Shown: positions 15,882 through 59,500, counted from the first letter of the stretch. The stretch is DNA of 64,000 nt from Muribaculaceae bacterium (GCA_051871515.1 JBJECY010000081.1:15894-79893); one strand, 5' to 3'. Numbers and translations are program-made. The notes: a model not told the origin generated them from the letters alone.

Positions 15882-15897
15882 ATATCTCCCAAAAACT

Positions 15898-16785: not shown

Positions 16786-16892
16786 TTTTTCACAACACAA
16801 CAATAAAAAAACCGGACCAATCTTCACCTCTCATTGCGAGAAAAAAGATTGGTCCGTAATCTTATATAATATGTAGCTAATTCTCTACACCA

Positions 16893-19172: not shown

Positions 19173-19204
19173 TGATTTACATTATTATTTATATGAGTTA
19201 ATAA

Positions 19205-21748
19205 TTATTCTATTTTTATATCCAAATCGCCTTGCGTGATGCCGTCGGAATCTACGGTGAGATGCAAATTTCCTTTTCCACCCCTTTTAGCGTTAACAAT
19301 CACAAGCAACAAACCGTTGAATGCTTTGCGTGATTTTTCAGAGAAAATCTGCAAGCAAGTTGGGTCGCCATTGTCGGTGGCAACAATCTCTCCCTCGCCT
19401 TGCAGCGAGCAGTTCAAGAGCGGTTCGGCGGTGGGCACTTCACGACCCTCGCTGTCAGTTAATGCCACTCTCACCATCACAAGGTCATAACCATCGGCTT
19501 TGATTGTTGATTTGTGAGGAGTGAGTTTAATTGAGCAAGCCTCGCCGGTGGTGCACACACTGCTTTGTGCCCACGGCTGCCCTTGTTTATAAGCCACAGC
19601 ACGCAATTCTCCCGGCTCATATTGCACACTGTCCCATTTGAGTCTGTATTGGTATTGACCCTTTTTCTTTCTTCCCAGCGACTTGTTGTTGAGAAAGAGT
19701 TCCACCTCGTCGCCCGAGGTATATACATACACCGGCGTGATTTCGCCCTTTCCGTTCTTTATTCTTTCAGGAAAATTCCAATGCGGCAATATGTGCACCA
19801 TAGGTTGATTGGGCAACCATCGCGACTGATAAAGGTAATAACGGTCTTTTGGGAATCCTGCCAAGTCAACAATGCCAAAATAGCTGCTACGGGAAGTAGG
19901 GCGATTTTTCTCAATTTCTTCAAGCTTTTTTCTTTGTTCAGCCAACTCCTCGTCGCTCATGGCTGCCGAGTGGTTGAGAAGCACACTCTCATCGCTATTG
20001 AATGGAGTGGGTTCGCCAAGATAGTCAAAACCGGTCCACACAAACTCGCCGCAAATGGCAGGGTAGCGGTCTAAGGCTGCAAACTCCTCGTCAACCAGTC
20101 CGCCCCAGCCGGGTTGCACATTGTCATACGACGACACATGAAACCTGCGCGGAAAATATTCGCCGCGGGTGCTCATGGTTGAGCTACTTTCACTTGAATA
20201 ACCCGATAGATGTTCGTGTCCCTTTTTATTAAGAAATTCTCCATATAGGTGAGGACCGCCATACACTCCTGCGGCATAGTTCATACCATGCACATCAACC
20301 TGCAACTCAGTGCCGTTAAGAGCTGATATACTTGGATAAGATGCTCCAAAAGTGACAGGGCGAGTGGTATCGAAGCGATGCACCACCTCTGTGAGATGAC
20401 GCGCCATGCCCGTTTCGGGGTGATACTGTTCTTCAACCTCATTGCCGGTGCTCCACATTATCACCGAGGGGTGATTGCGGTCGCGGCACACAAGCGACTC
20501 AAGGTCTTTCTCGTGCCATTGATTGAACAAATATCCATAGTCATATTGTTTTTTGCCGTGTTGCCAGCAGTCGAATGCTTCATCCATCACCAAAAAGCCC
20601 ATTTTATCAGCTAATGTGAGCAAATCGGGTGCCGGAGGATTGTGCGAAGTGCGCAATGAGTTGCATCCAAAACTCTTCAATATGGTGAGTTGACGGCGCA
20701 ACGCCTCGGTGTTGATGGCAGCGCCAAGCGCACCCAAATCATGATGGTTGCACGTTCCGTTGATTTGCACACGTTTGCCGTTTAGCAAGAATCCATTGTT
20801 ATGGGTAAACTCAATGGTGCGGAATCCAAAAGGCTGGTCATATTCATCAATAACCTTTTTATTGGCATCAAACACTTTAATGCGTGCCACATAGCGATGC
20901 GGAGCATCAATGCTCCATAATTTTGGTTTATCAACGCTCAGCAGCAAGCTGTCTTCAGCCATAGCTCCGTCAGCAGCCACGCGCAATGACTTGGTGACTG
21001 GTTTTGAAACTTTTCTGCCAATCACGTCTTCGGCATCAATTTCATATATTTGAGCACTTACGCTGCACTCCTTTGCCAAATCATTGTGATTCTGCAATTT
21101 CACTTTTACAACAGCCTGAGCCTTTTCTTTTGTAATCACAGGAGTGGTTACGAACACACCCCAATGGGCCACATGCAGCTGATTGGTCTTAACCAAACGC
21201 ACATGCCTATAAATGCCTGCGCCGGGATACCAGCGCGAGCCCCAATGCTCAGTGTCGAGCCTCACGGCAACCACATTTTCCTCGCCAAACAAAAGGTGTG
21301 GAGTGATATCAACTCTAAAAGAAATATATCCATAAGGTCGGCTGCCCGCCTTTTTGCCATTTATCCAAACCTCGGCATTTGCCATAGCACCGTCGAAGTC
21401 AATGTAAAACCTTTTCCCACTTTCCTCTTTGCTCACAGCAAAATGCTTGCGATACCAGCCAATGCCACGCCACGGCAACTTGCCGGTGTAGCCGTCGAGG
21501 TCGCCACGGAAAGGCCCCTCAATGCCCCAATCATGAGGCAAATCAAGCAGTCGCCACGCAGCATCGTTATAGTTGGTTGCTTCAATATTCTTAGGCTCAT
21601 CAACGCGGCTGCCATCGGGTTGCAACCCATATCGGGCAAAGCGCCAATCCCAATCAAAATTAAGGATTTCTCTCGCTGCCTGAACTTCAAAATTTATAAA
21701 TATTGAAACTATTATGCTGCAAATTATTATCAATGACCTTTTCATCAC
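19205..21748 (-). CDS. Glycoside hydrolase family 2 (beta-galactosidase-like)
   Basis: 847 aa with a signal peptide. NGTCNHHDLGALGAA...FGCNSLRTSHNPPAPDLL...MDEAFDCW...WSTGNE is a GH2 TIM-barrel signature. Confidence 0.85.
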   Translation of the reverse strand: MMKRSLIIICSIIVSIFINFEVQAAREILNFDWDWRFARYGLQPDGSRVDEPKNIEATNYNDAAWRLLDLPHDWGIEGPFRGDLDGYTGKLPWRGIGWYRKHFAVSKEESGKRFYIDFDGAMANAEVWINGKKAGSRPYGYISFRVDITPHLLFGEENVVAVRLDTEHWGSRWYPGAGIYRHVRLVKTNQLHVAHWGVFVTTPVITKEKAQAVVKVKLQNHNDLAKECSVSAQIYEIDAEDVIGRKVSKPVTKSLRVAADGAMAEDSLLLSVDKPKLWSIDAPHRYVARIKVFDANKKVIDEYDQPFGFRTIEFTHNNGFLLNGKRVQINGTCNHHDLGALGAAINTEALRRQLTILKSFGCNSLRTSHNPPAPDLLTLADKMGFLVMDEAFDCWQHGKKQYDYGYLFNQWHEKDLESLVCRDRNHPSVIMWSTGNEVEEQYHPETGMARHLTEVVHRFDTTRPVTFGASYPSISALNGTELQVDVHGMNYAAGVYGGPHLYGEFLNKKGHEHLSGYSSESSSTMSTRGEYFPRRFHVSSYDNVQPGWGGLVDEEFAALDRYPAICGEFVWTGFDYLGEPTPFNSDESVLLNHSAAMSDEELAEQRKKLEEIEKNRPTSRSSYFGIVDLAGFPKDRYYLYQSRWLPNQPMVHILPHWNFPERIKNGKGEITPVYVYTSGDEVELFLNNKSLGRKKKGQYQYRLKWDSVQYEPGELRAVAYKQGQPWAQSSVCTTGEACSIKLTPHKSTIKADGYDLVMVRVALTDSEGREVPTAEPLLNCSLQGEGEIVATDNGDPTCLQIFSEKSRKAFNGLLLVIVNAKRGGKGNLHLTVDSDGITQGDLDIKIE

Positions 21749-36499: not shown

Positions 36500-36635
36500 G
36501 TGATTTATAGCCAAGCAAAGATGCTAATTTTTAATAAATTATCAAATTTTTGAATGAATCAATATAAAACAATGACAATCAATAATTGATTACTGACATT
36601 GTTTTTTTTCGGAGGAGCGTTTGGTATGGCGTTCG

Positions 36636-37345
36636 CCGCTGTTTTGCGGCTGGGATGAAGATTTTTTGCTTATAGTTAATGTCATCCGCCTGTAGGGGCG
36701 TATCGCAATACGCCCGGAATCGGTGTGCCGTGAGGTTAATTCGTTTAAATCCAAAATGCACGCATTGGTATTTACCGGGGCCACGCCGCGGTCGCCGGGC
36801 GTATTGATATACGCCCAAAACACACGCATTGGTATTTATCGGGGCCTCGCCGCGGTCACCGGGCGTATTGCTATACGCCCCTACAACAACGCATCACATT
36901 ATTTGGTGGCCATGCTGCGGTTGTCGGGCGTATTGCGATACGCCCCTACATACTTCGCACCGTTTTTGCGGCTGGGATGAAGATTATTTTCCTATGGTTA
37001 ATGCCATCCGCCTGTAGGGGCGTATTGCTATACGCCCGGAATCGGTATGCCGTGGGGTTAATTCGTTGAAATCCAAAATGCACGCATTGGTATTTACCGG
37101 GGCCACGCCGCGGTCATCGGGCGTATTGCTAACGCCCATACATACTTCGCACCGTTTTTGCGGTTGGGATGAAGATTATTTGCTTATAGTTAATGCCATC
37201 TGCCTGTAGGGGCGTATCGCAATACGCCCGGAATCGGTGTGCTGTGGGGTTAATTCTTTTAAATCCAAAATACATGCATTGGTATTTATCGGGTCCACGT
37301 TGCGGTCACCGGGTGTATTGCGATACGCCCCTACAACAACTCATC
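36636..37345. repeat. REP-like palindromic repeat array 1 (8 copies of GGGCGTAT-N4-ATACGCCC within 3 larger composite units)
   Basis: Palindromes at 36696, 36797, 36861, 36926, 37018, 37119 (degenerate), 37210 and 37311. Composite units start at about 36636, 36955 and 37147. Confidence 0.9.
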
Positions 37346-37349
37346 ATCT

Positions 37350-37892
37350 TTACGGTTTTGGTAGCAAAGACGTGCAGCGGTGTAGCCCGGTGTTGATGAT
37401 GGTGTTGACTGCTGCGGTGTCTTGTAGCGCTTCGTTCAAAGTGATGGGCAGCCGGTACATGTGGGTGAGTGGCTGTGAGTCGATTATTTTGCTTTTGAGT
37501 GTGGCGGTGCTTGGCACTTGCGTGAGCGCAGCATATTCATCGTAGGTGTAGGATGTAAATGCCACGTTGGCGCCAATGCCTCGCCTGTCGAGCAAATAGC
37601 CTTGTGCCAACTTTATGGGCAATTGCGAGGGGGTGATGTCGCTCGGGTGGGGGTAGTTGGCTATCGAGCCACCGTCAGTCATGTTTATTGGCACGTTTTG
37701 GCTGTAGTCGGCTCGGGTTTTATAAATCACTGCTGGTGGAAGGGCGCTTTGCATGGGCTGCTCAATTACAGCCACGTTGCCGCCTGCCGCCGGTGGTGTG
37801 GTGGCGGCATCTTGTGTGGCAGTGCCCGATTTGCATGATGCCATTGCTGTGATTGCCATTGCTGTGATTAGTGTTTTGATTGTTATGTTCAT
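37350..37892 (-). CDS. Lipoprotein of unknown function, downstream of the C10 protease
   Basis: 180 aa with lipobox AMASC. There is a 33-nt gap to the protease stop. Confidence 0.55.
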   Translation of the reverse strand: MNITIKTLITAMAITAMASCKSGTATQDAATTPPAAGGNVAVIEQPMQSALPPAVIYKTRADYSQNVPINMTDGGSIANYPHPSDITPSQLPIKLAQGYLLDRRGIGANVAFTSYTYDEYAALTQVPSTATLKSKIIDSQPLTHMYRLPITLNEALQDTAAVNTIINTGLHRCTSLLPKP

Positions 37893-44622: not shown

Positions 44623-44645
44623 GGTTTTTTGTGTTATTATTTATG

Positions 44646-44677
44646 CAAATGTAGCAAACTTAATCTTTTCCACCAAA
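44646..44677 (-). promoter_or_regulatory. Canonical Bacteroidota promoter for the MFS gene
   Basis: -7 caaatgta (reverse complement TAcaTTTG, 44646-44653) and -33 caaa (reverse complement TTTG, 44674-44677), with a 20-nt spacer. Confidence 0.5.
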
Positions 44678-44740
44678 TATTTCAACATTTCACTCTATGC
44701 AGCATTAAATGGCGAAATTTCGCTAAAATGTTTGATTATG

Positions 44741-44771
44741 TTTGATAATTTCACTTTGTTCATTAAATTTG
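44741..44771 (+). promoter_or_regulatory. Canonical Bacteroidota promoter for the three-gene orphan operon
   Basis: -33 TTTG (44741-44744), a 19-nt spacer, then -7 TAaaTTTG (44764-44771), 32 nt upstream of ATG 44803. Confidence 0.5.
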
Positions 44772-44802
44772 CAATAGGGAAAAACAAAAAACAGTATGAA
44801 TT

Positions 44803-45780
44803 ATGGAAGGTATGAATGTAATTTATAATTTTGATGAGTTTTTGAATAGTTGGATTTACACTCCCAAACATCAGTTAACCGATAAACAGGTTTCTAATGG
44901 TATCAGTGGTTATTTTTGGGGACAATTATTTTCAAACATTATCTGCGGATATATTTCTCGAAAAGGTGCTAAAACAGATTCCGAGAAACGCTGCGAGTTT
45001 CAAGAAGAGATTAATAAACTAAACCAGAATTGGCAGAATGAACGTACCAATCTTGAGATTGAGGCGATGCGTTGTCTTGCCCAAGATGGCATTAAGCATC
45101 ATCAGGAATATAGCACAGCTCTGCACAAATCAGAAGCATGGCGCACTGAGTTTGATGATTACTGCGCTGCCGGGTGGGGCTTCCGCCCGTCGGTTTCAGC
45201 CGTTTTGCAGTCGCATTTGCGCCCTGATTGCAATGAGTTGGGCACTTTTCAGATGAACATCATGATTGCTCAAACCGTTGTGCTCTCGCAAATTTGCAAA
45301 AGCTCAGCCACAAACTATTTGGCATTTTGCCAAGATATGAAGATGATGCTGATGCCAGCATGCAACGGCTTCAGCGGTAAGTGGATAAATGCCTGGAACC
45401 GTACCTCGTCAAACGGATTAGTTGATGCCTTGAAGCTTCACTATCTGCTTCAGGGGCAGCCCACAGTGATACTGTTTGTTGATAAAGACAACCTCGGAAA
45501 TCTCACTTGTGAATGTGCCATTTGGCACTTCATTGTTGGCAAGAGCGATTTTCTCACCAAACGTCTGTGTAGCTTCCCAATTGGCGATGCTCCGCTTGAG
45601 GGTGCCAAACAAATGCTACTGGCATGTGCAGCTTATGTGCACGATTGTCATGTGGCTTGCTTTGGCAATGGTGAGAAGAAGGCTTTGCCTGCTATCGACA
45701 ATGCTATCACCATCCCGGAGTTGAAGGCGCACCTTGTTGATTTTAGCGACGATGTTCAGAATCTTTTAGGTGGTAAGTGA
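44803..45780 (+). CDS. Orphan operon gene A: Cys-rich cytoplasmic/peripheral protein with predicted coiled-coil, unknown family
   Basis: 325-aa ORF (alternative ATG 44812) with no signal peptide. Residues about 60-115 are heptad-like and charged. About 14 Cys were counted by eye. Confidence 0.6.
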   Translation: MEGMNVIYNFDEFLNSWIYTPKHQLTDKQVSNGISGYFWGQLFSNIICGYISRKGAKTDSEKRCEFQEEINKLNQNWQNERTNLEIEAMRCLAQDGIKHHQEYSTALHKSEAWRTEFDDYCAAGWGFRPSVSAVLQSHLRPDCNELGTFQMNIMIAQTVVLSQICKSSATNYLAFCQDMKMMLMPACNGFSGKWINAWNRTSSNGLVDALKLHYLLQGQPTVILFVDKDNLGNLTCECAIWHFIVGKSDFLTKRLCSFPIGDAPLEGAKQMLLACAAYVHDCHVACFGNGEKKALPAIDNAITIPELKAHLVDFSDDVQNLLGGK

Positions 45781-45859
45781 GCCGAGTAAATCACCTTGCC
45801 ACGTTTCATCACATTTCTTTAATATTCACACAATCATAAATAATATAGGAGGAAAAAGT

Positions 45860-47842
45860 ATGGATTTTATTACAATAGGTTGCGCAATTTTAATGTTAAC
45901 TGTTCAAGTATGCAATGCATGTGCGGCAAGAAAAAATGCCCTCAAGCTTCAGGAACTTCAGCATAATGCCGAACGTAATTTGGCTAAAGGAAACATTGCT
46001 GCAGCTCGCAGAAACATGATGTTGTTGATGGAAGAACGCGCCAAACTCAGCGAGTTGAGCAGTCAGGCTATGATGAGTCAGCTTAGAGCAGACCATCTGA
46101 TGGCGGTGAGAATGATAGCTGACCGCTATTCTCGCAAAAACTGGCCTTTGCTTGTGCCACCATTGGTGATGCGCAACGATGTGCGCTTTTTTCTCGACAC
46201 AAATCTGCCCGTTAGCTTTGAGCAATATGAGCCTGTGAATGTGCTGTTTGCTCCCTCATGCTGCTTGGCTTTTTCTGAGCAGGTGCAGCCTGCGATTGCC
46301 GCAAAGTTGCAAATGTATTTTGAGCGATATTGGGGCTATGGCTCGGCTCATCAAATAATGTTTTACAACAATTGTTGGGTTGGTGCCAAGGTTGGCGACG
46401 AGACCACGGTGCGTGACATTGAGGCACTCACCGGCACCACTCCATCTATTGTGATTACTCCGCAGGTCAACGACGGCAAACTCTTTCTTTCGCTGTCGCA
46501 CTGGCACTTGGCCACAACCAACGTTGAGGCTTCTCAACACAGCTGCTTTGAGCAGATGATTACTTTGCCAATTGATGGCGTGAACTTCTCAACAGATAAC
46601 TATGCCGAGAGCGATGTTGAGCTTATTGCCAATGAGGCATCGCAAGCCATAGCCTGCTTATGCGGCATGTATGTTGACATTTATGCTTGGAGCCGCTATC
46701 ACACTGCTCCGCTTTTGCCCGGCTTGCTTGCCCGCAATGCTTTTGATTGGGGCAATAAGCAATTGGCTGAGACCAACAAAGCCTATGTGGAATTGCTGAA
46801 ATCGTCGGTTGCTTCAGGTGTTGCTGTGCTTGGAATCCACGATAAGGCGATAGCCGATTTTTGCGTAGCTGTTGATAAACCATTTGGCACCAAGCATTGC
46901 TTGCGCTCGTTGCCCATCTTTGGCTCTAAACTTGGCAAAAAGTTTTTTGCTCCGCTTTTGCCATCAACCCAGGCTTGCATCATAGAGCTGCTTAAGCAGC
47001 ACAACAATCATTATTGCATTGACCGTAAGGTGATAAACCAGCTTCATGCCGACTATGCCATCAACTTGCTGGTGTTGGCTGCCTACGAGCTGATTGACGC
47101 CAGCCCCAATCAGTTACCTTTCACAAATAATGATATCTACGAGGAGAAAGAGGAGTTCTTTTTGTTTGACAAGGCCGATTTGCGCAATCAATTGTTTGGT
47201 ATGGCAAAGGAGGCCATAAACAGCGTTTTCACCGACATTCATTCAACCAACGCAAGCGATTGGCGCGCTTGGGCTCGCTCACGTCTTTGCTATCGCTTTA
47301 AGGAGCCTGAGATGAATTTGATAGCATCAATCATGACCGAATTTAAGCCGCGAGTGAAGACGTGGTTAAACTCACGTTGCGACATGGTTGTTGACCAATG
47401 CTATGCCAATATGAAGGAGCAACTCAGCAACATATTGCCAAATCATGATTCGGTGCTGCACAATGCGAAGAAGATTGTGAGAAACCGCTATGCCGAGAAA
47501 ATTGTTGACATCAACACCGATGAATATATAAAGAATAATGCCGACAGGTTTACCTCGAGTAGAGAGATTTGGGCTGACCGAGTGGCTTACGAGCGCATCT
47601 ACTATTCAGTGTTTGGTTCCGACCATTTGCGTGACACCTATTCAAAAGCGTCGATAGGCTCTTACAACCGCGAGTTGAGAGATGACTCCATATTGGCACT
47701 CTTAATCATGATGCGCAACTTTATGGGAAAGACGTTAGACATCAAGCAACATATTGTTGAGCCTATTGAGGATGATTATACTGGTGGGCATATTGAGTGG
47801 GGACGTGAGGGTGATTTGCCCGGTTGGCCTCGTGACGTATAA
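45860..47842 (+). CDS. Orphan operon gene B: N-terminal TM helix plus coiled-coil, a gene-A-like domain, and a long helical C-terminal region, unknown family
   Basis: 660 aa from ATG 45860 (MDFITIGCAILMLTVQVCNACAA is a TM helix). The ORF-track start at 45770 is a GTG that overlaps gene A. Confidence 0.6.
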   Translation: MDFITIGCAILMLTVQVCNACAARKNALKLQELQHNAERNLAKGNIAAARRNMMLLMEERAKLSELSSQAMMSQLRADHLMAVRMIADRYSRKNWPLLVPPLVMRNDVRFFLDTNLPVSFEQYEPVNVLFAPSCCLAFSEQVQPAIAAKLQMYFERYWGYGSAHQIMFYNNCWVGAKVGDETTVRDIEALTGTTPSIVITPQVNDGKLFLSLSHWHLATTNVEASQHSCFEQMITLPIDGVNFSTDNYAESDVELIANEASQAIACLCGMYVDIYAWSRYHTAPLLPGLLARNAFDWGNKQLAETNKAYVELLKSSVASGVAVLGIHDKAIADFCVAVDKPFGTKHCLRSLPIFGSKLGKKFFAPLLPSTQACIIELLKQHNNHYCIDRKVINQLHADYAINLLVLAAYELIDASPNQLPFTNNDIYEEKEEFFLFDKADLRNQLFGMAKEAINSVFTDIHSTNASDWRAWARSRLCYRFKEPEMNLIASIMTEFKPRVKTWLNSRCDMVVDQCYANMKEQLSNILPNHDSVLHNAKKIVRNRYAEKIVDINTDEYIKNNADRFTSSREIWADRVAYERIYYSVFGSDHLRDTYSKASIGSYNRELRDDSILALLIMMRNFMGKTLDIKQHIVEPIEDDYTGGHIEWGREGDLPGWPRDV

Positions 47843-47898
47843 ATGAAGACTTTAATACATTCAACGAATTGATTAATAACTAAATAATACAAGATAGT

Positions 47899-48855
47899 AT
47901 GGATTTCACTACATTTAACAATGATTATACATGCCTTGACGGCATGCAGTATGACACAACAAACTCGCCGTTTGGCTCGTTGTGTGATTTTATGGAAAGT
48001 CCTTTCATGAGCCAATTCACTGATTTGGCACATGAATATAACCTCCCCGACGATGTGGTGGCACAAGCTGCCGCTGATGCTTATAACTTCTTCAATATGC
48101 CCGAATCGCCCATTTTTCGCGGTGCTGAGACCTGTGTGTGGCCGGGAAATCCGTTTGTGATGGACGATGACCGCCTTGATGTGAACGTTGACCAGCTCAA
48201 GGGCATGGGTGTGCATGACACCAAAACGCTCTCGTTGATTCTCACTCATGAGATTGTGCACCGTCTCACTCAGGATATGCTTGCCACCGGGCAACTCTCA
48301 CCCTGGCAGGGTGAGGCGCTGAGCGATATGTGGATGGGTATTCGCGGTGCTATGCAAGGAATTGACGTACAACCAGCCATCGACTCGCTTAAAGGTGGGG
48401 TTGACTGCGAAACACATCCCGGCTTTGACCTGCGCGAAGAGTATATCAACAAGGGTTGTGAGCTATATGAGGAGATGAAAGCATCGGGCGAAGAAATCAA
48501 CTATGAGAGCCTCATGGCAAAGGCAATACATGATGTTCGCAACAACGACGAGCTTAACCAGCGTGAGATTGAAGCCAACCGAGAAGCCTTATACAGCGGT
48601 GGTCATCGAGGACGTGCGGCTGCGTTCTCACCATCATACTCTAAAGGAGAGATTGATTCTCACATAAAAGAGGCTCAAAACAAGATTGACCATCTTAAGT
48701 CAGTGATACATGACCATACCCGGATAATGAAAGACCGTGCAGCACAAGGTTTGCCAATAGATTCTGAAAAGTACACAATTGGAAGTGCAAAGATAGACCT
48801 TGAAAATGCAAAAAAGGAGTTAGAAAAGTGGCAAAATACCAAGCCTGCAAAATAA
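47899..48855 (+). CDS. Orphan operon gene C: putative zinc metallopeptidase (HEXXH) with C-terminal coiled-coil
   Basis: 318 aa. HEIVH at residues 117-121 (nt 48247-48261), with Glu139 18 residues downstream. No signal peptide. Confidence 0.6.
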   Translation: MDFTTFNNDYTCLDGMQYDTTNSPFGSLCDFMESPFMSQFTDLAHEYNLPDDVVAQAAADAYNFFNMPESPIFRGAETCVWPGNPFVMDDDRLDVNVDQLKGMGVHDTKTLSLILTHEIVHRLTQDMLATGQLSPWQGEALSDMWMGIRGAMQGIDVQPAIDSLKGGVDCETHPGFDLREEYINKGCELYEEMKASGEEINYESLMAKAIHDVRNNDELNQREIEANREALYSGGHRGRAAAFSPSYSKGEIDSHIKEAQNKIDHLKSVIHDHTRIMKDRAAQGLPIDSEKYTIGSAKIDLENAKKELEKWQNTKPAK

Positions 48856-48903
48856 TGTTTATCTTTGTTGTCCGATAAAATTTTTGAGCGTGGTTGGTGA
48901 TTA

Positions 48904-49887
48904 GGCGAGTGATGCAATACGCCCAAAAACACCAACCACGCCACCCGCGATGTCGGTCACATGTTGGGGCGTATGGCAATACGCCCGACGACCGCGGTGA
49001 TGCCAATAAAAAATGTGATGCGTTGTTGTAGGGGCGTATAGCAATACGCCCGGCGACCGCAGCGATGCCAATAAATAATGTGATGCGTTGTTGTAGGGGC
49101 GTATCGCAATACGCCCGGTGACCGCGGCGATGCCAACAAAAAATGTGATGCGTTGTTGTAGGGGCGTATCGCAATACGCCCGGCGACCGCAGCGTGGTCA
49201 TGATAAATACCAATGCGTGTATTTTGCATTACATCACATTAAACCCTGGCACATCGATTCCGGGCGTATCGCAATACGCCCGGCGACCGCGTCGATGCCA
49301 ACAAATAATGCGATGCATTGTTGTAGGGGCGTATGGCAATACGCCCGACGACCGCGGTGATGCCAATAAATAATGTGATGCGTTGTTGTAGGGGCGTATC
49401 GCAATACGCCCGGCGACCGCGGCGATGCCAAAAAAATGTGTTGCGTTGATGTAGGGGCGTATAGCATACGCCCGGTGACAGCAGCGAGGCCCCGATAAAT
49501 ACCATCATTTTGGATTTCAACGAATTAACCCCACGGCACACCGATTCCGGGCGTATTGCTATACGCCCCTACAGGCTTCGCCTCGTTTTGGGGTTGGGGT
49601 TTTTGATGTGCGTATTCGACACGCCCAATATTTTGCTTTACAACACATTAAACTTGGCACACCGATTCCGGGCGTATAGCATACGCCCGGCGACCGCGGC
49701 GTGGTCAACAAATAATGTGATGTGTTGTTGTAGGGGCGTATAGCATACGCCCGGTGACAGCAGCGAGGCCCCGATAAATACCATCATTTTGGATTTCAAC
49801 GAATTAACCCCACGGCACACCGATTCCGGGCGTATTGCTATACGCCCCTACAGGCTTCGCCTCGTTTTGGGGTTGGGGTTTTTGATG
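48904..49887. repeat. REP-like palindromic repeat array 2 (about 15 copies), including two 4 x 65-bp tandem runs and a 159-bp perfect direct duplication
   Basis: Palindromes at 48967, 49032, 49097, 49162, 49262, 49327, 49392, 49455, 49549, 49670, 49734 and 49828, plus degenerate copies. The units are reverse-complementary to those of array 1. Confidence 0.9.
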
Positions 49888-55000: not shown

Positions 55001-55315
55001 CGATACGTTTACAGTAGAGGCGTTGCCCACTTTCACTTCTTTGGGTTGTTGGCCCACATAAGAGATGATGAGAGTGCTGCCTGGTGCTGCATTGATTGAA
55101 TATCTGCCGTTAACGTCGGTAGATACGCCTCGTTTTGTGCCTTTAACCCGAACGGTGGCACCTATGAGAGGCTCACCACTGGCATCGGTGACGATGCCGG
55201 TTACAGTGCTTGATTGTGCATGGGCAGCAAAGCCTGTATTGCACTCGTTGCTGAGTGAATAGGGTGCGCCCATTGCCAAACATGCGGCTGCGAACATTGC
55301 TAATGCTTTTTTCAT
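52082..55315 (-). CDS. SusC/RagA-family TonB-dependent outer-membrane transporter (left pair)
   Basis: 1077 aa. A carboxypeptidase-regulatory-like domain (GIVTDASGEPLIGATVRVKGT), TonB box/plug (DEVVVTALGIKK) and a C-terminal beta-barrel ending ...GVNLTF. Confidence 0.9.
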   Translation of the reverse strand: MKKALAMFAAACLAMGAPYSLSNECNTGFAAHAQSSTVTGIVTDASGEPLIGATVRVKGTKRGVSTDVNGRYSINAAPGSTLIISYVGQQPKEVKVGNASTVNVSLSSDSTNLDEVVVTALGIKKDKKSLGYAVDDLNAEELMKNKTANAINSLSGKIAGVNITQSSGAAGSGASIILRGGTSGSESRDNQPLFVVDGIIYDNSASVVGNSAFDGITNSATTTSNRVMDINPEDIENMSILKGPAASALYGSRAANGVVLITTKKGKEGAIEVNLNAKYISSWVNKMPEQQTQFKRGFMEDQYDASTGAYIGTSFNDFAYNSWGEKMKATDPVYDNPGNFFQNGGIVDTNLSISGGSKTGNFFLSGSFYDQDGIVPETGYKKSTFRFNGEQKYKMFTFGANAAYSEARTAKTFTSGGLYGSSGDGALARVYNWAPSDDMRHYLNEDGTRYRLFGDRLDPWDESDNPYWIINKNKLSDNTERFTGSFSVRADITDWLWASYRMGIDKYTATYSNRIAAGGVVKQVWQNGMLSDNSREFKYLSTNFMLNANKSFGDFDFNLMVGTSTDDTKVKSTYLMSYDLQVPDFFSYDNTPDTNRQFSHSMSRKRLVGVFGEFRADWKSTVFLTVTGRNDWTSTLPVENRSYFYPSVSGAVVFTNFMQDLDFVKEGILSYGKVRASWAKVGKDTGAYETNTNLWPVHTYLGNIVGLGNSWERGNPYLKPEMTKSTEIGIELRFLHNRLKLDYAYYTNDSYNQILSPRGPQSTGYIFCSINAGNVYNKGMELSISGTPVQTKNFTWETGINMAGNRGTMDGLPEGMEFMYLTDVQYAGAKACSISGGNFMAISGTKWARTTDGKVILDSNGMPTQNTATVQVGNREAKMTGGWNNTFTWKNWSLNMLWEFRIGGDVFNGTKYAMTMAGTSKWSGEFRNEPLTISGVQQTGKDAEGKPVYTEVTNTWEPDKVYTFGGKEMLGYNIIKNYYTGAYNYETANWLTTVNSLRLRTLSLSYTVPQSFLAKTKVIKRASLTATATNLLLFTNYDGDPEAAASGAGAGGSSSVGFDYCGVPATASFAFGVNLTF

Positions 55316-55460
55316 AAGCGTAACTTTTAATGGTTAATTGTAATTTTTATTTTTTTGGAACTCTATATATTTGCATTGTTCATTAGTTACGGCTGCAGCC
55401 ACTCGCTGCAGTGTGTAATTGCTGAGCTAAATAACCATTCCGTGTGCTTCTTGCGGCAAG

Positions 55461-55503: not shown

Positions 55504-55535
55504 CAAATGTATGAATTTTTTTTAGCATCACCAAA
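55504..55535 (-). promoter_or_regulatory. Canonical Bacteroidota promoter inside the putative invertible element, currently aimed at the left susC
   Basis: -7 caaatgta (reverse complement TAcaTTTG, 55504-55511) and -33 caaa (55532-55535), with a 20-nt spacer. Confidence 0.5.
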
Positions 55536-55564: not shown

Positions 55565-55587
55565 AAAACCACCGTTTAGTTGTATCC
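55565..55587. promoter_or_regulatory. Left inverted-repeat copy 2 (IR-L2), overlapping the invertase stop codon
   Basis: The sequence aaaaccaccgtttagttgtatcc matches IR-L1 at 21 of 23 positions, in direct orientation. Confidence 0.5.
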
Positions 55588-56190
55588 ATCAACTTTCAAA
55601 CGTGTTAAGAAACGTGAAACTGTGCCTCGGTCAACTCCCAAAACACGGGCAATGTGGCGCACCGACTTGCCTTTGCCATACAGAGTCAAAAGCAGTTCCC
55701 GGTCCTTATAAAGTTTGCACTTTGTTACTGATGTGCGCCTGCCGCGCGGACGGCCCAATGCTATGCCTTGCGCACGCCTGAGTGCCAGAGCCTCTTTGGT
55801 GCGCAGGCAAATGAGCTGACGCTCAATCTCAGCCGATAGCCCAAAGGCAAACGCCAGCACTTTGCTTTGAATGTCGTCGCCAAGGCGGTAGTTGTCTTTG
55901 ATGGTCCACACCTTGCAACCTCTTGTCATGCAGATGTTTAGTATCTCCATCACCATAAATAAATTTCTTCCTAAGCGCGAAATCTCTGAGCAGATGATGG
56001 TGTCGTTGTGTCCCACCCTGTTGAGTAGCTGTCCCAAGCGGCGTTTGCCATACTCTTTGGCTCCGCTGATGGTTTCTTCAATCCAGCCGTCAATGTGATA
56101 ATCGTTTTGTTTGCAGAATCTTACGATTTCAAAGCGCTGGTTTTCCACTGTCTGCTTGTCGCTACTTACTCTAATATATCCGTAAATCAT
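55576..56190 (-). CDS. Serine-type DNA invertase (Hin/Gin/Mpi-like resolvase-family recombinase)
   Basis: 204 aa. The catalytic motif GYIRVSSDKQ, SRLGRN, and the E-helix LSAEIERQLICLRTKEAL are present, with a C-terminal HTH SVRHIARVLGVDRGTVSRFL. Confidence 0.9.
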   Translation of the reverse strand: MIYGYIRVSSDKQTVENQRFEIVRFCKQNDYHIDGWIEETISGAKEYGKRRLGQLLNRVGHNDTIICSEISRLGRNLFMVMEILNICMTRGCKVWTIKDNYRLGDDIQSKVLAFAFGLSAEIERQLICLRTKEALALRRAQGIALGRPRGRRTSVTKCKLYKDRELLLTLYGKGKSVRHIARVLGVDRGTVSRFLTRLKVDGYN

Positions 56191-56397
56191 AAAGTTAAGT
56201 TTGTATAAGTTAATAAATGTTGGGTTATGTTTTGTTTTTTGGTATTTCGGGTCAGAATTTTTGAAAAATCGTAAATATCACCAGTTGTTAAATTAACCAT
56301 TATTGATGTATATTCACATTATTTCACTAAAAATATTATATCGTTTAGTTTGTTAATTAAAAAAAACAAAATAAATTTGTTGATGCTAAATTTTTCA

Positions 56398-56423: not shown

Positions 56424-56545
56424 GTCGAGTCAGCGTAAGAGAATTAGCATTAACATAATGTATTAGAATTGATTTTATAACTACAAATAAAATAAATTAA
56501 AGAGTACAACTACAAAAAACTATTAACACTTAAACCTTGTCGCTT

Positions 56546-59500
56546 ATGAAAAAAGCATTAGCAATGTTTGCAGCGTTATGCTTAGCAGTGGGTGCACCTT
56601 ATTCCGGCGAAAACAGTTGGAACGAGGGATTTGTTGCTCATGCACAAGGCAATGCTGTAAGTGGTGTCGTTAAAGACTCCAAAGGTGAACCTCTGATTGG
56701 TGCTACAATTATGGTAAAGGGCACTACAAGAGGTGTATCTACCGACGTTAACGGTAGATTTACAGTACAAGCCGCTCCTAACAGTGTGCTTCAAGTCTCA
56801 TTTGTGGGAATGAAGACAAAGTCTGTGAAGGTGTCTGGCCAAAAAAACATCGACGTTGTCCTTGAGGGCACGGGTGCCGAGCTTGATGACCTGGTGGTTG
56901 TGGGCTATGGCCAACAGAAGAAAATCAACTTGACCGGTGCTGTTTCGTCGGTTGACGTTGAGAAGACCCTTCAAGGCCGTCAGATTCCTGACGTTGGTCG
57001 CGGTCTGCAAGGTACCACTCCTGGCTTGAACGTGGTGTTGCCTAACGGTGAAATCGGTTCAGACCCAACAATCAAGATTCGTGGTCAGTTCGCCTCATTC
57101 CAAGGCTCAACCCAACCGCTCATCTTGATGGACAACGTGGAGATTCCTTCAATTCAGATTGTTAACCCCGACGACGTTGAGAGCATCTCAGTGCTCAAGG
57201 ATGCCGCTGCTGCTTCAATCTACGGTTCAAAAGCTGCCTTCGGTGTAATCCTTATCACCACCAAGAAGGGTGCCAAGACCGAATCAGTGAACGTATCTTA
57301 TTCAGCCAACTTTGCATGGCAAAACATCTCAAAGAAGATGGAGATGGGCGGTATTGACGCATTGCAATATCGCGTTGATGCCATGAAGCGTGTTGGCTCT
57401 ACCCTCTACGGTGCATTCTGGTATGTCGATGAAGAATCGCTTGCTGCTGCTCGCCAATGGCAAGCAGACTACGGCGGCAAGATTGGCAAGAACGACCCAT
57501 TTGTTTACGGCCGTGACTGGTATGTTAACGAAAAGGGATATAAGTTCTCAAAACGTATCTTCGACCCATACGACTACATGATTCGCGAATGGGCTCCATC
57601 AATGACCCACAACCTTTCGGTTAACGGTAGGTCGGGCAGGACTTCTTATAATATAGGTCTTGGCTACCTCGACCAATCAGGTCTTATTGCTCCGTCGAAG
57701 CACGATGATTTCCGTCGTTATAATGCTTCGGTTCGTTTGACCACCGAAATCAACAAGTATGTCACCGTTCATGCCGGTTTGACCTACTCAATGCGCAACA
57801 AGCGCTATGCTTATGCAACCAACTCAACCACCGCCGACCCTTGGTTGTATCTCTATCGTTGGGATACCACTTATCCAATGGGCTACGACGACCAAGGTCG
57901 TGACTTGCGTTCTCCTTACAACGAAATGAAGAACGCTAACACAGCCAACAAGCAAAACACTTACCTCTCGTTTAACGCTGGTTTGACTATCAACCTCACC
58001 AACGATTGGCACGTGAACGTTGACTACACCTATGCACAAGAAGACCAAGTCTGGAACAAGATTGGTACTAAGTTCACAATGTGCAACACTTGGGGCACTG
58101 CATTGCTTCGCACAAACGAAGACGGCACACAAATGTATGTCGACAAGAACACTGGTGTAGAGGTTTCATCGAGCGATGCAAACGCAATCCCTGCTTACGA
58201 ACTGCAATATTTCCAATACACCTCTGACGGTGCTAACCCTGACCACATACGTCGTGAAGTGACCAACGCCAAGCGCCACACTTGGAACATCACCACCGAC
58301 TATAACTGGCAAATCAACGAATCAAACAACTTGAAGGCGCTCCTCGGTGCTAACATCGTTGATTGGGAATCAGACAACAGCTGGTCACAAATCACCAACC
58401 TCACCGACATCGTTAACCCATCATGGGACAAGACCAACGGCACACAAACTGCAAGCGGTAACCTCTATTGGGAAGGACAAGTTGGTTTCTTTGGTCGTTT
58501 GAACTATAGTTTGATGGATAAATACCTCTTGGAAGCTAACCTCCGCTACGACGCATCGTCGAAGTTCCCAGAACACTTGCGTTGGCGTTGGTTCCCATCG
58601 TTCTCAGGAGGATGGCGCGTAAGCGAAGAAACATTCATGAACTGGGCTAAGCCAGCACTTCAAGCTGCTAAGATTCGTGCATCTTGGGGTAAGATTGGTG
58701 ACCAATCAGTGGCAAGTTCACTCTATGTTCCAACCATGGCACAAGGTCAAATCAGCTGGTTGGCAGGCGGCAAGAAGCTTGTTTACGTTGGCACACCAGC
58801 CGCTGTTCTCGCCGACATCACTTGGCAAGACATCGTAACCACCGACTTTGGTATCGACCTCTCGTTCCTCGATGGCCGCGTAGCCCTCACTTACGACTGG
58901 TATCAACGTGACACCAAGAACATGATTGTTGGTATGGAAGGTGTTCCTGCAACATTCGGTTCTTCTGCACCTAAGGGCAACTTTGGTAACCTGCGCACTC
59001 GCGGTTGGGAAATTGCTCTTAACCTTAACCACCGCCTCAGCTGCGGCCTTGGCATGAACGCTACATTCACCATCAGCGATGCTAAGACTAAGATTACTGA
59101 ATACGGTACTGGTCAAAGTGTTGACGGCTGGTATAACGGCAAGACCTACGGTGAAATCTGGGGTTACGAAGTTGACCGCCTCTATCAAAAGGATGACTTC
59201 GTTTATGACGGCGACGGCAACCTGGTTACCACTTGGGCATATCATGGCAAAGAAGTTGCTGAAGGCACTGCAGGCGCCAAGAAGGTTAATAAGCTGAAAG
59301 ACCCTAACGGTGTTTATCAAGACAACTTCCAAGGTGGCAACTTTATGTTCGGTCCTGGTGACGTTAAGTATAAAGACCTCGACGGCAACGGCGATATCTA
59401 CAACACCGCTTACCTCAAGGAATACAACGGTGCTCTCATTGGTCCTGACGATCCTAACTACAACAGCCCAGACGCCAAGTTGGTTGGTTCAAACACTGTT

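What the first reader, a model, noticed from the sequence alone, without database searches (positions are those of the whole stretch)
44623..48855. Orphan three-gene operon (coiled-coil protein, TM/coiled-coil paralog, HEXXH zincin): candidate undescribed system
Three co-directional ORFs lie at 44803-45780, 45860-47842 and 47899-48855, with short gaps of 79 and 56 nt. They follow a canonical Bacteroidota promoter: -33 TTTG at 44741, a 19-nt spacer, then -7 TAaaTTTG at 44764.

I cannot place any of the three products in a family I recognise. None has a signal peptide, whereas almost every neighbouring accessory gene is secreted.
- Gene A is Cys-rich and has a heptad-like charged segment.
- Gene B has one N-terminal TM helix, a long coiled-coil, an A-like domain and a helical extension of about 380 aa.
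- Gene C carries HEIVH plus a downstream Glu and ends in a coiled-coil.

The start regions of B and C are similar at the nucleotide level (aaataataYa...agtATGGATTTyAyTACA; both proteins begin MDF-I/T-T). The first roughly 120 nt of gene A is very AT-rich: I counted 17/60 and 18/60 G+C in two consecutive 60-nt lines, against roughly 50% in flanking genes.

The cassette sits inside an 11.5-kb segment bracketed by inverted REP-like arrays. A membrane-tethered coiled-coil sensor or scaffold next to a cytoplasmic metalloprotease is an arrangement seen in conflict (defence or toxin-type) systems. That functional reading is pure inference.
Basis: partly seen in the sequence, partly recalled or inferred. 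Interest (0 to 1): 0.8.

Follow-up and report, generated by a model that had tools for sequence, protein, structure and literature searches.

The report
Mobile three-gene cassette with toxin-type zincin
This is a real, rare three-gene cassette that moves between gut Bacteroidota genomes; its third protein belongs to an undescribed zinc-protease-like family that elsewhere forms the front end of DNA-cutting bacterial toxins, so it is probably a new conflict (defence or toxin) module whose mechanism is still unknown.

Summary
The three ORFs, their spacing, the Bacteroidota promoter motif, the HEIVH motif and the flanking REP arrays are all present as described. The genes are not true orphans. The same A-B-C order, tightly packed, recurs in 9 independent loci from genomes and metagenomes, and a tenth has B and C only.

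No Pfam, NCBIfam, PADLOC, PHROGs or PDB match exists for any of the three. A and B share one domain and evolve much faster than C. In the four housekeeping-context loci measured, the cassette has lower GC3 than its neighbours, and its neighbours differ in every genome, so it is horizontally mobile.

An exhaustive profile search places C in an undescribed zincin-like family of about 230 clusters. H117, E118 and D143 are invariant; H121, E139 and H173 are nearly so. The AF2 model has pLDDT 89.7. Some relatives carry C-terminal LHH, AHH, WHH, colicin-DNase or EndoNS toxin domains. In the three toxin-type locus sets fetched, these follow a dynamin-like GTPase and a HerA-type ATPase and precede a small gene (SUKH immunity in two sets).

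The window's C has no toxin domain and no immunity gene. Best reading, at moderate confidence: a membrane-associated conflict module with C as the only enzyme. The mechanism is inferred.

The parts
44741..44771 (+). Bacteroidota-type promoter motif (TTTG, 19-nt spacer, TAAATTTG) 32 nt upstream of gene A's ATG. It is the only such motif on the + strand between 44623 and 48855.
   Evidence: 10 matches in the window against 2.06 expected. A divergent copy at 44646-44677 (-) serves the MFS gene.
44803..45780 (+). Gene A, 325 aa. New family with a weakly hydrophobic segment near residues 33-51, a charged helical region (about 55-130), then a conserved beta-rich core. Invariant residues include Y214, Q217, G218, P220, W241 and G246. 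No catalytic-looking residue set is conserved.
   Evidence: Homologs (19-24% identity) sit in the same position in 8 other loci.
45304..45678 (+). Domain of A (residues 168-292) that is shared with B.
   Evidence: hhalign of A3 against A4: 80.5% probability, E 1.3e-5. The B-family HMM hits A-family proteins at E 1e-4 to 1e-2.
45860..47842 (+). Gene B, 660 aa. New family. From the N-terminus: hydrophobic anchor, helix-rich charged segment, invariant WPLxxPPLVMRND motif, A-like domain, then a long C-terminal region. The GenBank call of 620 aa removes the conserved anchor.
   Evidence: Homologs (17-24% identity) occur in 9 other loci.
45866..45922 (+). N-terminal TM-like helix of B (residues 3-21). 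Positive charges lie only on its C-terminal side, which predicts a short N-terminus outside and the bulk of the protein in the cytoplasm.
   Evidence: Kyte-Doolittle 19-mer score is 1.92 here and 1.7-2.2 in close homologs, but only 1.1-1.25 in the distant L013 and L017 homologs. The orientation is inferred from the positive-inside rule.
46142..46180 (+). WPLLVPPLVMRND motif of B (residues 95-107), the sharpest conserved block of the family.
   Evidence: P96, L97 and P101 are invariant; W95 and V103 are at least 90% conserved over 10 family members.
46295..46711 (+). A-like domain of B (residues 146-284).
47899..48855 (+). Gene C, 318 aa. Zincin-like domain followed by a helical hairpin. No signal peptide, TM segment or toxin domain.
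48037..48594 (+). Zincin-like core of C (about residues 47-232). It has three short strands (72-74, 79-81, 92-95), the HExxH helix (108-123), a helix carrying E139 and D143 (135-153), and a THPGxDLR loop (172-179).
   Evidence: AF2 with a 150-sequence alignment: pLDDT 89.7 overall and 94-99 across the core. The family has 230 clusters at E<=1e-3.
48247..48261 (+). HEIVH motif (H117, E118, H121).
   Evidence: H117 and E118 are invariant and H121 at least 90% conserved in 150 relatives. HExxH is present in 148 of the 156 sequences on file at that point; those 156 include P0007 and P0008, which are the window's own B and A proteins.
48643..48834 (+). C-terminal helical hairpin of C (residues 249-312), with the motif QNKIDHLKSVI strongly conserved among triad-type C proteins.
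   Evidence: Foldseek matches only this part, to the seryl-tRNA synthetase arm, at probability about 0.95.
48888..48941 (+). Strong stem-loop 33 nt after C's stop codon, at the edge of the REP-like array. It probably marks the end of the transcript.
   Evidence: RNA fold of 48840-49010: -59.4 kcal/mol, z = -3.47. The role as a terminator is inferred, because there is no U-tract. In L008 a canonical hairpin follows the C homolog.

Best explanation
The three genes form one operon and one functional unit. It is a rare, horizontally mobile cassette of the biological-conflict type: defence against invaders, or antagonism between bacteria.

**Proposed roles.**
- C is the only enzyme. It is a cytoplasmic zincin-like metallohydrolase, most likely a peptidase. 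H117 and H121 would bind the metal and E118 would be the catalytic base. E139, D143 or H173 would complete the site. A conserved helical hairpin would act as a docking arm.
- A and B are non-enzymatic paralogs. B is tethered to the inner face of the cytoplasmic membrane by its N-terminal helix. Through their helical segments, A and B would form a membrane-associated scaffold that holds, positions or gates C.
- In distant relatives the same zincin-plus-helix module sits in front of exchangeable nuclease toxins. The window's version has no toxin, so C itself would be the effector or processing enzyme.

**Shown.** The genes are conserved and linked, they are mobile, the active-site-like residues are conserved, relatives are fused to toxins with adjacent immunity genes, and B has a membrane-anchor signature.

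**Inferred.** Peptidase activity, formation of an A-B-C complex, the trigger, and the target.
For: **Linkage.**
- A-B-C occurs in the same order in the window, L001, L002, L003, L004-6, L007, L008, L013/14 and L017. L016 has B and C only.
- HMM searches confirm homology, with A at E 1e-52 to 1e-171 and B at E 1e-17 to 0.
- By the called coordinates, A and B in the other loci overlap by 4-8 nt or are separated by at most 12 nt, and the B-C gaps are 2-68 nt.
- All-against-all clustering shows that only A, B and C recur.

**Mobility and arms-race signature.**
- Cassette GC3 is below that of most or all measured flanking genes in four genomes. The contrast is sharpest in L003 (0.24-0.32 against 0.65-0.77) and weak in L008, where one flank (0.552) is lower than the cassette.
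- Flanking genes differ in every locus.
- Mean pairwise identity is 0.28 for A, 0.24 for B and 0.42 for C.

**C as an enzyme.**
- Invariant or near-invariant residues: H117, E118, H121, E139, D143, H173, P174 and R179.
- The confident AF2 model has three strands, then the HExxH helix, then the helix with E139 and D143.
- The only weak fold echoes are to phage peptidase, metallopeptidase and SprT entries.

**Conflict link.**
- Relatives carry LHH, AHH, WHH, Colicin-DNase and Endonuclease_NS_2 domains at the C-terminus.
- Three independent toxin-type locus sets read dynamin-like GTPase, then HerA/FtsK-type ATPase, then zincin-toxin, then a small downstream gene. That gene is SUKH/SMI1_KNR4 in two of the sets.
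- Triads in other genomes lie beside PP2C, kinase-AAA, SIR2, caspase, WG-repeat, FGE-sulfatase, ThsA-Macro and integrase genes.

**A and B as non-enzymatic proteins.** Their invariant residues are aromatic, proline or glycine, and no catalytic set is conserved.

**Membrane anchor of B.**
Against: - There is no experimental or expression evidence.
- No known defence or toxin model matches any of the three proteins.
- In this window the neighbours are ordinary PUL genes, and no immunity-like gene follows C.
- The zincin assignment rests on motif and topology only. Foldseek found nothing at E<0.001 in PDB or BFVD, even with the confident model. The deep profile found no PDB zincin.
- A and B could not be modelled, so the complex, the coiled-coils of A and B, and B's helical extension are untested.
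- The TM signal is weak in the distant B homologs of L013 and L017, and marginal in A.
- Close C relatives are very rare: 6 clusters in 5.8 billion, and one locus in about 185,000 species genomes. Their neighbourhoods are heterogeneous.
Confidence: 0.4

Rival explanations
1. The cassette is a toxin- or effector-trafficking module. C is cargo. Its zincin-plus-hairpin region is a recognition and self-processing domain, as proposed for the PVC-metallopeptidase domain of contractile-injection-system toxins. A and B are the membrane adaptors that hand it to an export route, playing the part that the dynamin-like GTPase, the TM-hairpin protein and the HerA-type ATPase play in the toxin-bearing relatives. 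In the window's version the peptidase itself would be the exported effector.
For: - Relatives have a constant N-terminal zincin followed by variable toxins and an adjacent immunity gene, which is the grammar of polymorphic toxins (Zhang et al. 2012, PMC3482391).
- Zincin-toxin genes occur in tandem in L020, and two zincin domains are fused in L016.
- A membrane component is present in both kinds of locus: B's anchor, and the 212/213-aa TM-hairpin protein.
- The helical hairpin recalls the hairpin-shaped substrates of FtsK-type export ATPases. That comparison is my own knowledge and a resemblance only.
Against: - C has no signal peptide or known trafficking domain.
- The triad contains no ATPase or other energy source, and no secretion-system genes are nearby.
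- Triad-type C proteins never carry a toxin, and their longer tails are only more coiled-coil.
- No immunity-like gene is conserved next to triads.
- The HerA-type ATPase and the dynamin of the toxin loci have no TM segments.
- Plasmid versions of that module are headed by WYL regulators, which I know mainly from defence islands (the association with defence is my own knowledge).
Confidence: 0.2
2. The cassette is a selfish addiction or stabilisation module, like a toxin-antitoxin system. C, or a product of its activity, harms the cell, and A and B restrain it. The cassette therefore persists after horizontal transfer without giving the host any defence benefit.
For: - The cassette is foreign in composition, has variable insertion contexts and has a patchy distribution.
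- The genes are tightly coupled.
- Relatives are paired with neutralising SUKH proteins.
Against: - A and B total about 1,000 aa and are membrane-associated, far larger than typical antitoxins.
- None of the three proteins matched a DNA-binding family in Pfam, NCBIfam, PADLOC or PHROGs.
- In the window, L002 and L003 no recombinase or integrase lies directly beside the cassette.
Confidence: 0.12
3. The cassette is a housekeeping or regulatory membrane-proteolysis system. Examples would be quality control of membrane proteins, or cleavage of a tethered regulator. It would have no conflict role.
For: - A metalloprotease-like protein sits beside membrane-tethered partners.
- In four genomes the cassette lies among metabolic or PUL genes.
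Against: - The family is extremely rare and patchy: one locus among about 185,000 species representatives.
- The composition is foreign.
- A and B diverge very fast.
- No conserved substrate-like or regulator gene lies nearby.
- Relatives are fused to toxins.
Confidence: 0.08
4. The genes are non-functional remnants or mis-called ORFs.
For: There are no expression data. The closest relatives come only from uncultured genomes and metagenome assemblies.
Against: - All three ORFs are intact, at 318-660 aa.
- Their lengths fall within or within a few residues of the family ranges.
- Every invariant family residue is present.
- Gene order is conserved across homologs as distant as 17-45% identity.
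- A good promoter motif lies upstream.
Confidence: 0.03

Closest known systems
PVC-metallopeptidase domain (named in Zhang et al. 2012, PMC3482391; from my own knowledge it corresponds to Pfam DUF4157) of toxins loaded into extracellular contractile injection systems
   Same: - It is an N-terminal zincin-like module described as three strands plus three helices, with HExxH on the second helix and a Glu on the third. The AF2 model of C has the same layout.
- It is followed by exchangeable C-terminal toxin domains, including LHH and WHH nucleases with SUKH immunity.
- Toxin-less, stand-alone versions also exist.
   Different: - No Pfam match for C at E<=1. No zincin family other than Peptidase_M48 (3 members, E 0.03) appears among the 25 most frequent families when 150 relatives are scanned at E<=5.
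- The signature is HExxHxxxQ, not HExxHxxQ, and it adds D143 and a THPGxDLR loop.
- No contractile-injection gene family was flagged among the precomputed Pfam calls of any fetched locus. The partners are A and B, or dynamin plus a HerA-type ATPase.
- A conserved helical hairpin follows the zincin core.
Polymorphic toxin systems in general (constant N-terminal region, variable C-terminal toxin, adjacent immunity gene)
   Same: - The wider C family obeys this grammar.
- Tandem toxin genes occur in L020.
- SUKH/SMI1_KNR4 immunity genes are present.
   Different: - The window's C, and all triad-type C proteins, lack a toxin domain and a conserved immunity gene.
- No recognised secretion-pathway domain is present.
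- A and B have no counterpart in the described systems I could read.
NTPase-centred conflict systems with GTPases and tubulin homologs (Kaur et al. 2020, PMC7159879). From my own knowledge, also the dynamin-based anti-phage system known as Eleos or 'Dynamins'.
   Same: - Relatives of C sit beside dynamin-like GTPases, and triads or C-like genes sit beside Tubulin_2 proteins, caspase, FGE-sulfatase, WG-repeat and PP2C/kinase genes. These are components typical of those systems.
   Different: - The window's cassette contains no NTPase at all.
- None of the proteins matches PADLOC models, apart from the HerA-type ATPase of the toxin loci.
- The association is by neighbourhood in other genomes, not in this one.
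Gluzincin-type metallopeptidases (HExxH plus a Glu on a following helix), such as family M48
   Same: - HExxH is followed 18 residues later by a conserved Glu on the next helix.
- Three of 150 relatives give weak Peptidase_M48 hits at E 0.03.
   Different: - There is no significant sequence or fold match to any solved zincin.
- There are extra conserved residues: D143, H173 and R179.
- C has no membrane segments.

Membership tests
PVC-metallopeptidase / DUF4157 | Match to the family's profile (from my own knowledge, Pfam PF13699) | tested here: not met
   C has no Pfam family at E<=1. In the scan of 150 relatives at E<=5, DUF4157 is not among the 25 most frequent families, which is all the output lists.
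PVC-metallopeptidase / DUF4157 | HExxHxxQ...E signature on helices 2 and 3 of a fold with three strands and three helices | tested here: inconclusive
   The topology and the HExxH...E pattern are present. The conserved Gln is one residue further along (HEIVHRLTQ), and D143 and H173 are additional conserved residues.
PVC-metallopeptidase / DUF4157 | Lies in or near a contractile-injection (PVC/eCIS) gene cluster | tested here: not met
   No sheath, tube or baseplate family appears among the neighbours in the window or in loci L001-L021.
Polymorphic toxin system | Constant N-terminal region joined to variable C-terminal toxin domains | tested here: not met
   This is met by distant relatives P0121, P0135, P0131, P0155 and P0056. 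It is not met by the window's C or any triad-type C, which end in coiled-coil only.
Polymorphic toxin system | Immunity gene immediately downstream of the toxin gene | tested here: not met
   SUKH/SMI1_KNR4 genes follow the toxin-bearing relatives. In the window, C is followed by a hairpin and a REP array, and no downstream family is conserved among triads.
Polymorphic toxin system | Recognised secretion or trafficking signal (signal peptide, PAAR, LXG/WXG, TPS, and so on) | tested here: not met
   None was found by Pfam. C has no hydrophobic N-terminus.
Zincin (HExxH) metallopeptidase superfamily | HExxH on a helix, with both His and the Glu conserved | tested here: met
   H117 and E118 are invariant and H121 is at least 90% conserved. 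The motif lies in helix 108-123 of the model.
Zincin (HExxH) metallopeptidase superfamily | Third metal ligand positioned by the next helix or loop | not testable with these tools
   The candidates E139, D143 and H173 are conserved. Model coordinates could not be inspected, so no distances were measured.
Zincin (HExxH) metallopeptidase superfamily | Significant fold similarity to a solved zincin | tested here: not met
   Foldseek found no hit at E<0.001 in PDB or BFVD. There are only weak phage peptidase, metallopeptidase and SprT echoes at probability 0.6-0.9.
Zincin (HExxH) metallopeptidase superfamily | Metal-dependent peptidase activity | not testable with these tools
   This needs biochemistry.
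Known anti-phage defence systems (PADLOC-DB v2) | Profile match of at least one component | tested here: not met
   A, B and C have no hit at E<=1. Seven neighbour proteins tested from L001, L010, L013 and L018, and the toxin P0121 of L018, have none either; only the HerA-type ATPase of L018 matches.

The most novel reading that the evidence does not exclude
The zincin-plus-hairpin domain marks a previously unrecognised way of deploying toxins or effectors at the cytoplasmic membrane.

In one form, nuclease toxins that carry this domain are handled by a dynamin-like GTPase, a small TM-hairpin protein and a HerA/FtsK-type ATPase. In the other form, which is the one in this window, two membrane-associated paralogs (A and B) replace that machinery and the peptidase itself is the effector.

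If true, A, B and C would be the minimal version of a new trafficking or activation pathway for polymorphic-toxin-like proteins in gut Bacteroidota.
Probability: 0.15. Interest if true: 0.85.

Novelty: new variant of a known kind. Interest (0 to 1): 0.62.

Why it matters
- **Three new protein families.** The finding defines three families with no annotation. One is a zincin-like domain found in about 230 sequence clusters, and it turns out to be a building block of nuclease toxins. That gives a new handle for finding toxins and their immunity genes in metagenomes.
- **An unlisted module.** The finding also exposes a recurrent gene set: dynamin-like GTPase, HerA-type ATPase, HNH-type nuclease (LHH, AHH or annotated HNH), then a small downstream gene, which is SUKH/SMI1_KNR4 in three of five cases. 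It occurs in cultured Lactococcus cremoris and Treponema saccharophilum plasmids. Apart from its HerA-type ATPase, none of its proteins tested matched the defence database I could query.
- **Relevance to Muribaculaceae.** This is a dominant but poorly studied family of the mouse gut. A mobile cassette of this kind is a candidate determinant of strain competition or phage resistance.
- **Limit.** The claim is limited by the cassette's rarity and by the lack of any functional data.

Tried and rejected
- **A versus B and C versus B by BLASTP.** Nothing significant. The A-B relationship appeared only at profile level.
- **PDB sequence searches.** I searched with C alone, with 6-member profiles of A, B and C, and with the 150-member C profile. 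Only coiled-coil noise came back.
- **First AF2 model of C (6-sequence alignment).** It was poor, with pLDDT 66.6 and no strands, and its Foldseek result was meaningless. The 150-sequence alignment fixed the model but not the search.
- **Scarcity in other collections.** The metagenome scan returned only one 1.5-kb fragment, and the viral-contig scan returned nothing. Plasmids hold no relative of B or C.
- **Same chromosomal position in the window and L008?** Rejected. The shared SusC/SusD pairs are only about 28% identical, so they are paralogs.
- **The S8-PTS paper (PMC9424270).** It describes a different system.
- **Similar B and C start regions as a functional element.** B homologs do not share the MDF start, so I treat the similarity as unexplained or coincidental.
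- **REP arrays as ends of a mobile element.** There is no evidence for this. The compositional dip covers only the cassette, not the whole 11.5-kb segment.
- **A fourth conserved partner gene.** None exists.
- **Literature.** Searches for dynamin plus polymorphic toxin, and for Muribaculaceae toxin systems, found no description of this cassette.

Full report
**1.

- The + strand carries ORFs at 44803-45780 (A, 325 aa), 45860-47842 (B, 660 aa) and 47899-48855 (C, 318 aa). The gaps are 79 and 56 nt.
- The upstream motif is TTTG (44741), a 19-nt spacer, then TAAATTTG (44764). This pattern occurs 10 times in the window against 2.06 expected, mostly just upstream of genes. No second copy lies inside the operon.
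- A strong stem-loop follows C's stop codon (z = -3.47).
- REP-like arrays of about 65-nt units lie at 36618-37351 and 48902-49887 in inverted orientation. They occur nowhere else in the window.
- The first 120 nt of A are 32% G+C.
- The window comes from a Muribaculaceae metagenome-assembled genome, with locus tags ACI308_06230, _06235 and _06240.
- GenBank calls B 40 residues short, which removes a family-conserved hydrophobic N-terminus.

**2. No library knows these proteins**

- Pfam, NCBIfam, PADLOC and PHROGs give nothing better than E = 0.09 for any of the three.
- PDB sequence searches return only coiled-coil noise. This holds for single sequences and for profiles, including a 150-sequence profile of C.

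**3. They are not orphans**

- The word-indexed search of 5.8 billion protein clusters found only self-matches for A and B, and five relatives for C at 39-46% identity.
- I fetched the contigs of those relatives. Every one has a gene of about 340 aa and a gene of 620-690 aa directly upstream of the C homolog. Alignment and HMM searches show these are A and B homologs at 17-24% identity. They share sharp motifs, for example WPLxxPPLVMRND in B and MQGLPxVILF...W in A.
- A scan of one genome per species found one more triad in 185,579 species, again in Muribaculaceae (L008).
- More distant C relatives also have A and B upstream (L013/14 and L017), or B alone (L016).
- By the called coordinates, A and B in the other loci overlap by 4-8 nt or are separated by at most 12 nt.
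- All-against-all clustering of the ORFs in these loci shows that only A, B and C recur, in 9, 10 and 14 loci respectively. There is no fourth conserved partner.

**4. Anatomy**

*Gene B*
- It starts with a 19-residue hydrophobic segment with a Kyte-Doolittle score of 1.92. No positive charge precedes it, and K/R residues follow it. By the positive-inside rule this predicts a membrane anchor with the bulk of the protein in the cytoplasm. That orientation is an inference.
- The signal is weaker in the most distant homologs.
- After the anchor come a charged, proline-free segment, the invariant WPL motif, a conserved beta-rich domain, and a long poorly conserved C-terminal region.

*Gene A*
- It has a marginal hydrophobic segment, a charged helical region and a conserved core.

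*A and B together*
- The cores of A and B are related. hhalign gives 80.5% probability and E 1.3e-5. The B HMM hits A proteins at E 1e-4 to 1e-2.
- Their invariant residues are aromatic, proline and glycine, so I infer they are not enzymes.

*Gene C*
- It has no hydrophobic segment.

**5. What C is**

- An exhaustive HMM search of 1.84 billion representative proteins found 230 relatives at E<=1e-3 and 47 at E<=1e-30.
- Across 150 of them, H117, E118 and D143 are invariant. H121, E139, H173, P174 and R179 are at least 90% conserved.
- With this alignment AlphaFold gives a confident model, with pLDDT 89.7 overall and 94-99 in the core. It shows three short strands, the HExxH helix, a helix carrying E139 and D143, further helices, and a C-terminal helical hairpin at residues 249-312.
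- That is the zincin layout described for the PVC-metallopeptidase domain (PMC3482391).
- However, Foldseek finds nothing significant in PDB or in the viral structure library. The only hits are weak phage peptidase, metallopeptidase and SprT echoes, plus the seryl-tRNA synthetase arm for the hairpin.
- No member-level Pfam signal points to a zincin family other than three weak Peptidase_M48 hits, and DUF4157 is not among the families listed.
- I therefore call C zincin-like by motif and topology. It is not a member of any described family.

**6. The link to toxins**

- Some family members are longer and carry C-terminal LHH, AHH, WHH, Colicin-DNase or Endonuclease_NS_2 domains after the zincin and a helical linker.
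- Three independent toxin-type locus sets have the same order: dynamin-like GTPase, sometimes a 212/213-aa protein with a TM hairpin, a roughly 1,035-aa HerA/FtsK-type ATPase, the zincin-nuclease, then a small downstream gene. That gene is SUKH/SMI1_KNR4 in two of the sets.
- L020 has two zincin-family genes in tandem. L016 fuses two zincin domains in one protein.
- The same module occurs on plasmids of Lactococcus cremoris and Treponema saccharophilum, behind a WYL regulator. There the HNH nuclease lacks the zincin domain.
- Only the ATPase matches PADLOC models.
- Triad-type C proteins never carry a toxin domain. Their longer versions only extend the coiled-coil.

**7. Mobility and tempo**

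- In the window, L002 and L003, the GC and GC3 of all three cassette genes lie below those of every measured flanking gene. In L008 the contrast is weak, and one flanking gene has a lower GC3 (0.552) than the cassette.
- The extreme case is L003, with GC3 of 0.24-0.32 against 0.65-0.77. In the window it is 0.46-0.53 against 0.53-0.65.
- The flanking genes differ in every genome. They are PUL genes here and glycan or nucleotide metabolism genes in L002 and L003. In L001, L004, L007, L015, L016 and L017 they include PP2C, kinase-AAA, SIR2, caspase, WG-repeat, FGE-sulfatase, ThsA-Macro and integrase genes. In L013-15 they are Tubulin_2, Peptidase_C1 and a P-type ATPase.
- A and B diverge much faster than C. 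Mean pairwise identity is 0.28 for A, 0.24 for B and 0.42 for C. C is the most conserved of the three in 35 or 36 of 36 locus pairs.
- The apparent shared SusC/SusD context with L008 is a paralogy at 28% identity, not an orthologous site.
- No relative was found on viral contigs or plasmids.

**8. Interpretation**

Five things are shown:
- The three-gene unit is conserved, tightly linked and horizontally mobile.
- It has one enzyme-like component, with an intact and conserved active-site signature.
- That component's family also serves as the constant N-terminal part of polymorphic nuclease toxins.
- One partner is membrane-anchored.
- The two partners are paralogous, evolve fast and do not look catalytic.

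From this I infer the following.
- **Best explanation (confidence 0.4).** This is a conflict module in which A and B form a membrane-associated scaffold or gate for the zincin-like protein C. C is itself the effector or processing enzyme.
- **Trafficking reading (0.2).** A and B would hand C to an export route. The toxin grammar of the relatives keeps this alive. Against it, the cassette has no energy source, no secretion signal, no toxin and no immunity gene.
- **Other readings.** Addiction module (0.12), housekeeping proteolysis (0.08) and decay (0.03) fit the data less well.

**9. Novelty and limits**

- I found no description of the triad, of the C family, or of the module of dynamin, HerA-type ATPase, HNH-type nuclease and SUKH-type gene. 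This covers the searchable literature and four profile libraries.
- The kind of system is known: a mobile conflict cassette built around a polymorphic-toxin-type N-terminal peptidase domain. The families and the architecture are new, so I rate it a new variant of a known kind.
- Main gaps:
  - A and B were not modelled, because both structure-prediction jobs went to C.
  - There is no active-site geometry.
  - There are no expression or functional data.
  - Close relatives are very rare.

Noticed in passing
L010:436-8061, L018:1930-8898, L020:154-9234, L022:2391-11174, L023:2478-11345: A recurrent module appears in five locus sets from metagenomes and plasmids. Its order is dynamin-like GTPase(s), a small protein (a TM hairpin in the two checked, L010 and L020), a roughly 1,035-aa HerA/FtsK-type ATPase, an HNH-type nuclease (with or without the zincin domain), then a small downstream gene. 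That gene is SUKH/SMI1_KNR4 in three of the five. On Lactococcus cremoris pB26B and Treponema saccharophilum pTS2 the module follows a WYL regulator. Only the ATPase matches PADLOC models, and I found no paper describing it.
   Followed up: partly
window:55257-56604: A resolvase/invertase gene (55576-56190, - strand) lies between two divergent SusC genes. The 5' ends of those two genes form a 64-nt inverted repeat, 86% complementary (55257-55320 and 56541-56604). Bacteroidota promoter motifs sit at 55504-55535 (-) and 56349-56379 (+). The layout suggests an invertible segment that switches between two SusC/SusD pairs.
   Followed up: partly
window:36618-37351 and 48902-49887: Two arrays of about 65-nt repeat units, each with the palindrome GGGCGTATCGCAATACGCCC. 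There are 16 units in all, the arrays are inverted relative to each other, and they are about 11.55 kb apart. They occur only at these two places in the window. The compositional dip covers only the three-gene cassette, not the whole bracketed segment.
   Followed up: partly
window:45860-45979: The GenBank annotation of gene B (ACI308_06235, 620 aa) starts 40 codons downstream of the ATG at 45860. That start removes the N-terminal hydrophobic helix that is conserved in all ten family members.
   Followed up: yes
window:1046-1114: A match to the Rfam family FopS (RF04319, Bacteroidetes paralogous sRNAs) on the + strand: 80.1 bits against a gathering score of 56.
   Followed up: no
L013:467-6647 and 14966-17755; L015:1238-7371 and 16930-19764: In two metagenomic lineages, the C-family gene sits in a larger conserved neighbourhood. 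In L013 it comes with A and B; in L015 it does not. The neighbourhood holds a 950-990-aa Tubulin_2 protein, a 1,040-1,080-aa Peptidase_C1 protein, a P-type cation ATPase and repeated unknown proteins of about 450 aa.
   Followed up: no
L001:11320-12108, L007:198-965, L013:18089-18760, L016:10001-11857: Extra, more divergent zincin-family paralogs lie near triads. In L001 and L007 each is paired with an unknown protein of about 430 aa. L016 encodes one 618-aa protein with two tandem zincin domains.
   Followed up: partly
window:45842-45877 and 47881-47916: The start regions of B and C share AGTATGGATTTyAyTACA, with 16 of 18 nt identical, and both proteins begin MDF-x-T. B homologs elsewhere do not begin this way, so the resemblance is unexplained and may be chance.
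   Followed up: partly
window:40754-43165: An 803-aa ORF on the - strand has a signal-peptide-like N-terminus and no Pfam match at E<=1e-5. It lies between the MFS transporter gene and a C10 peptidase that carries a T9SS sorting domain and a Spi-inhibitor domain.
   Followed up: no
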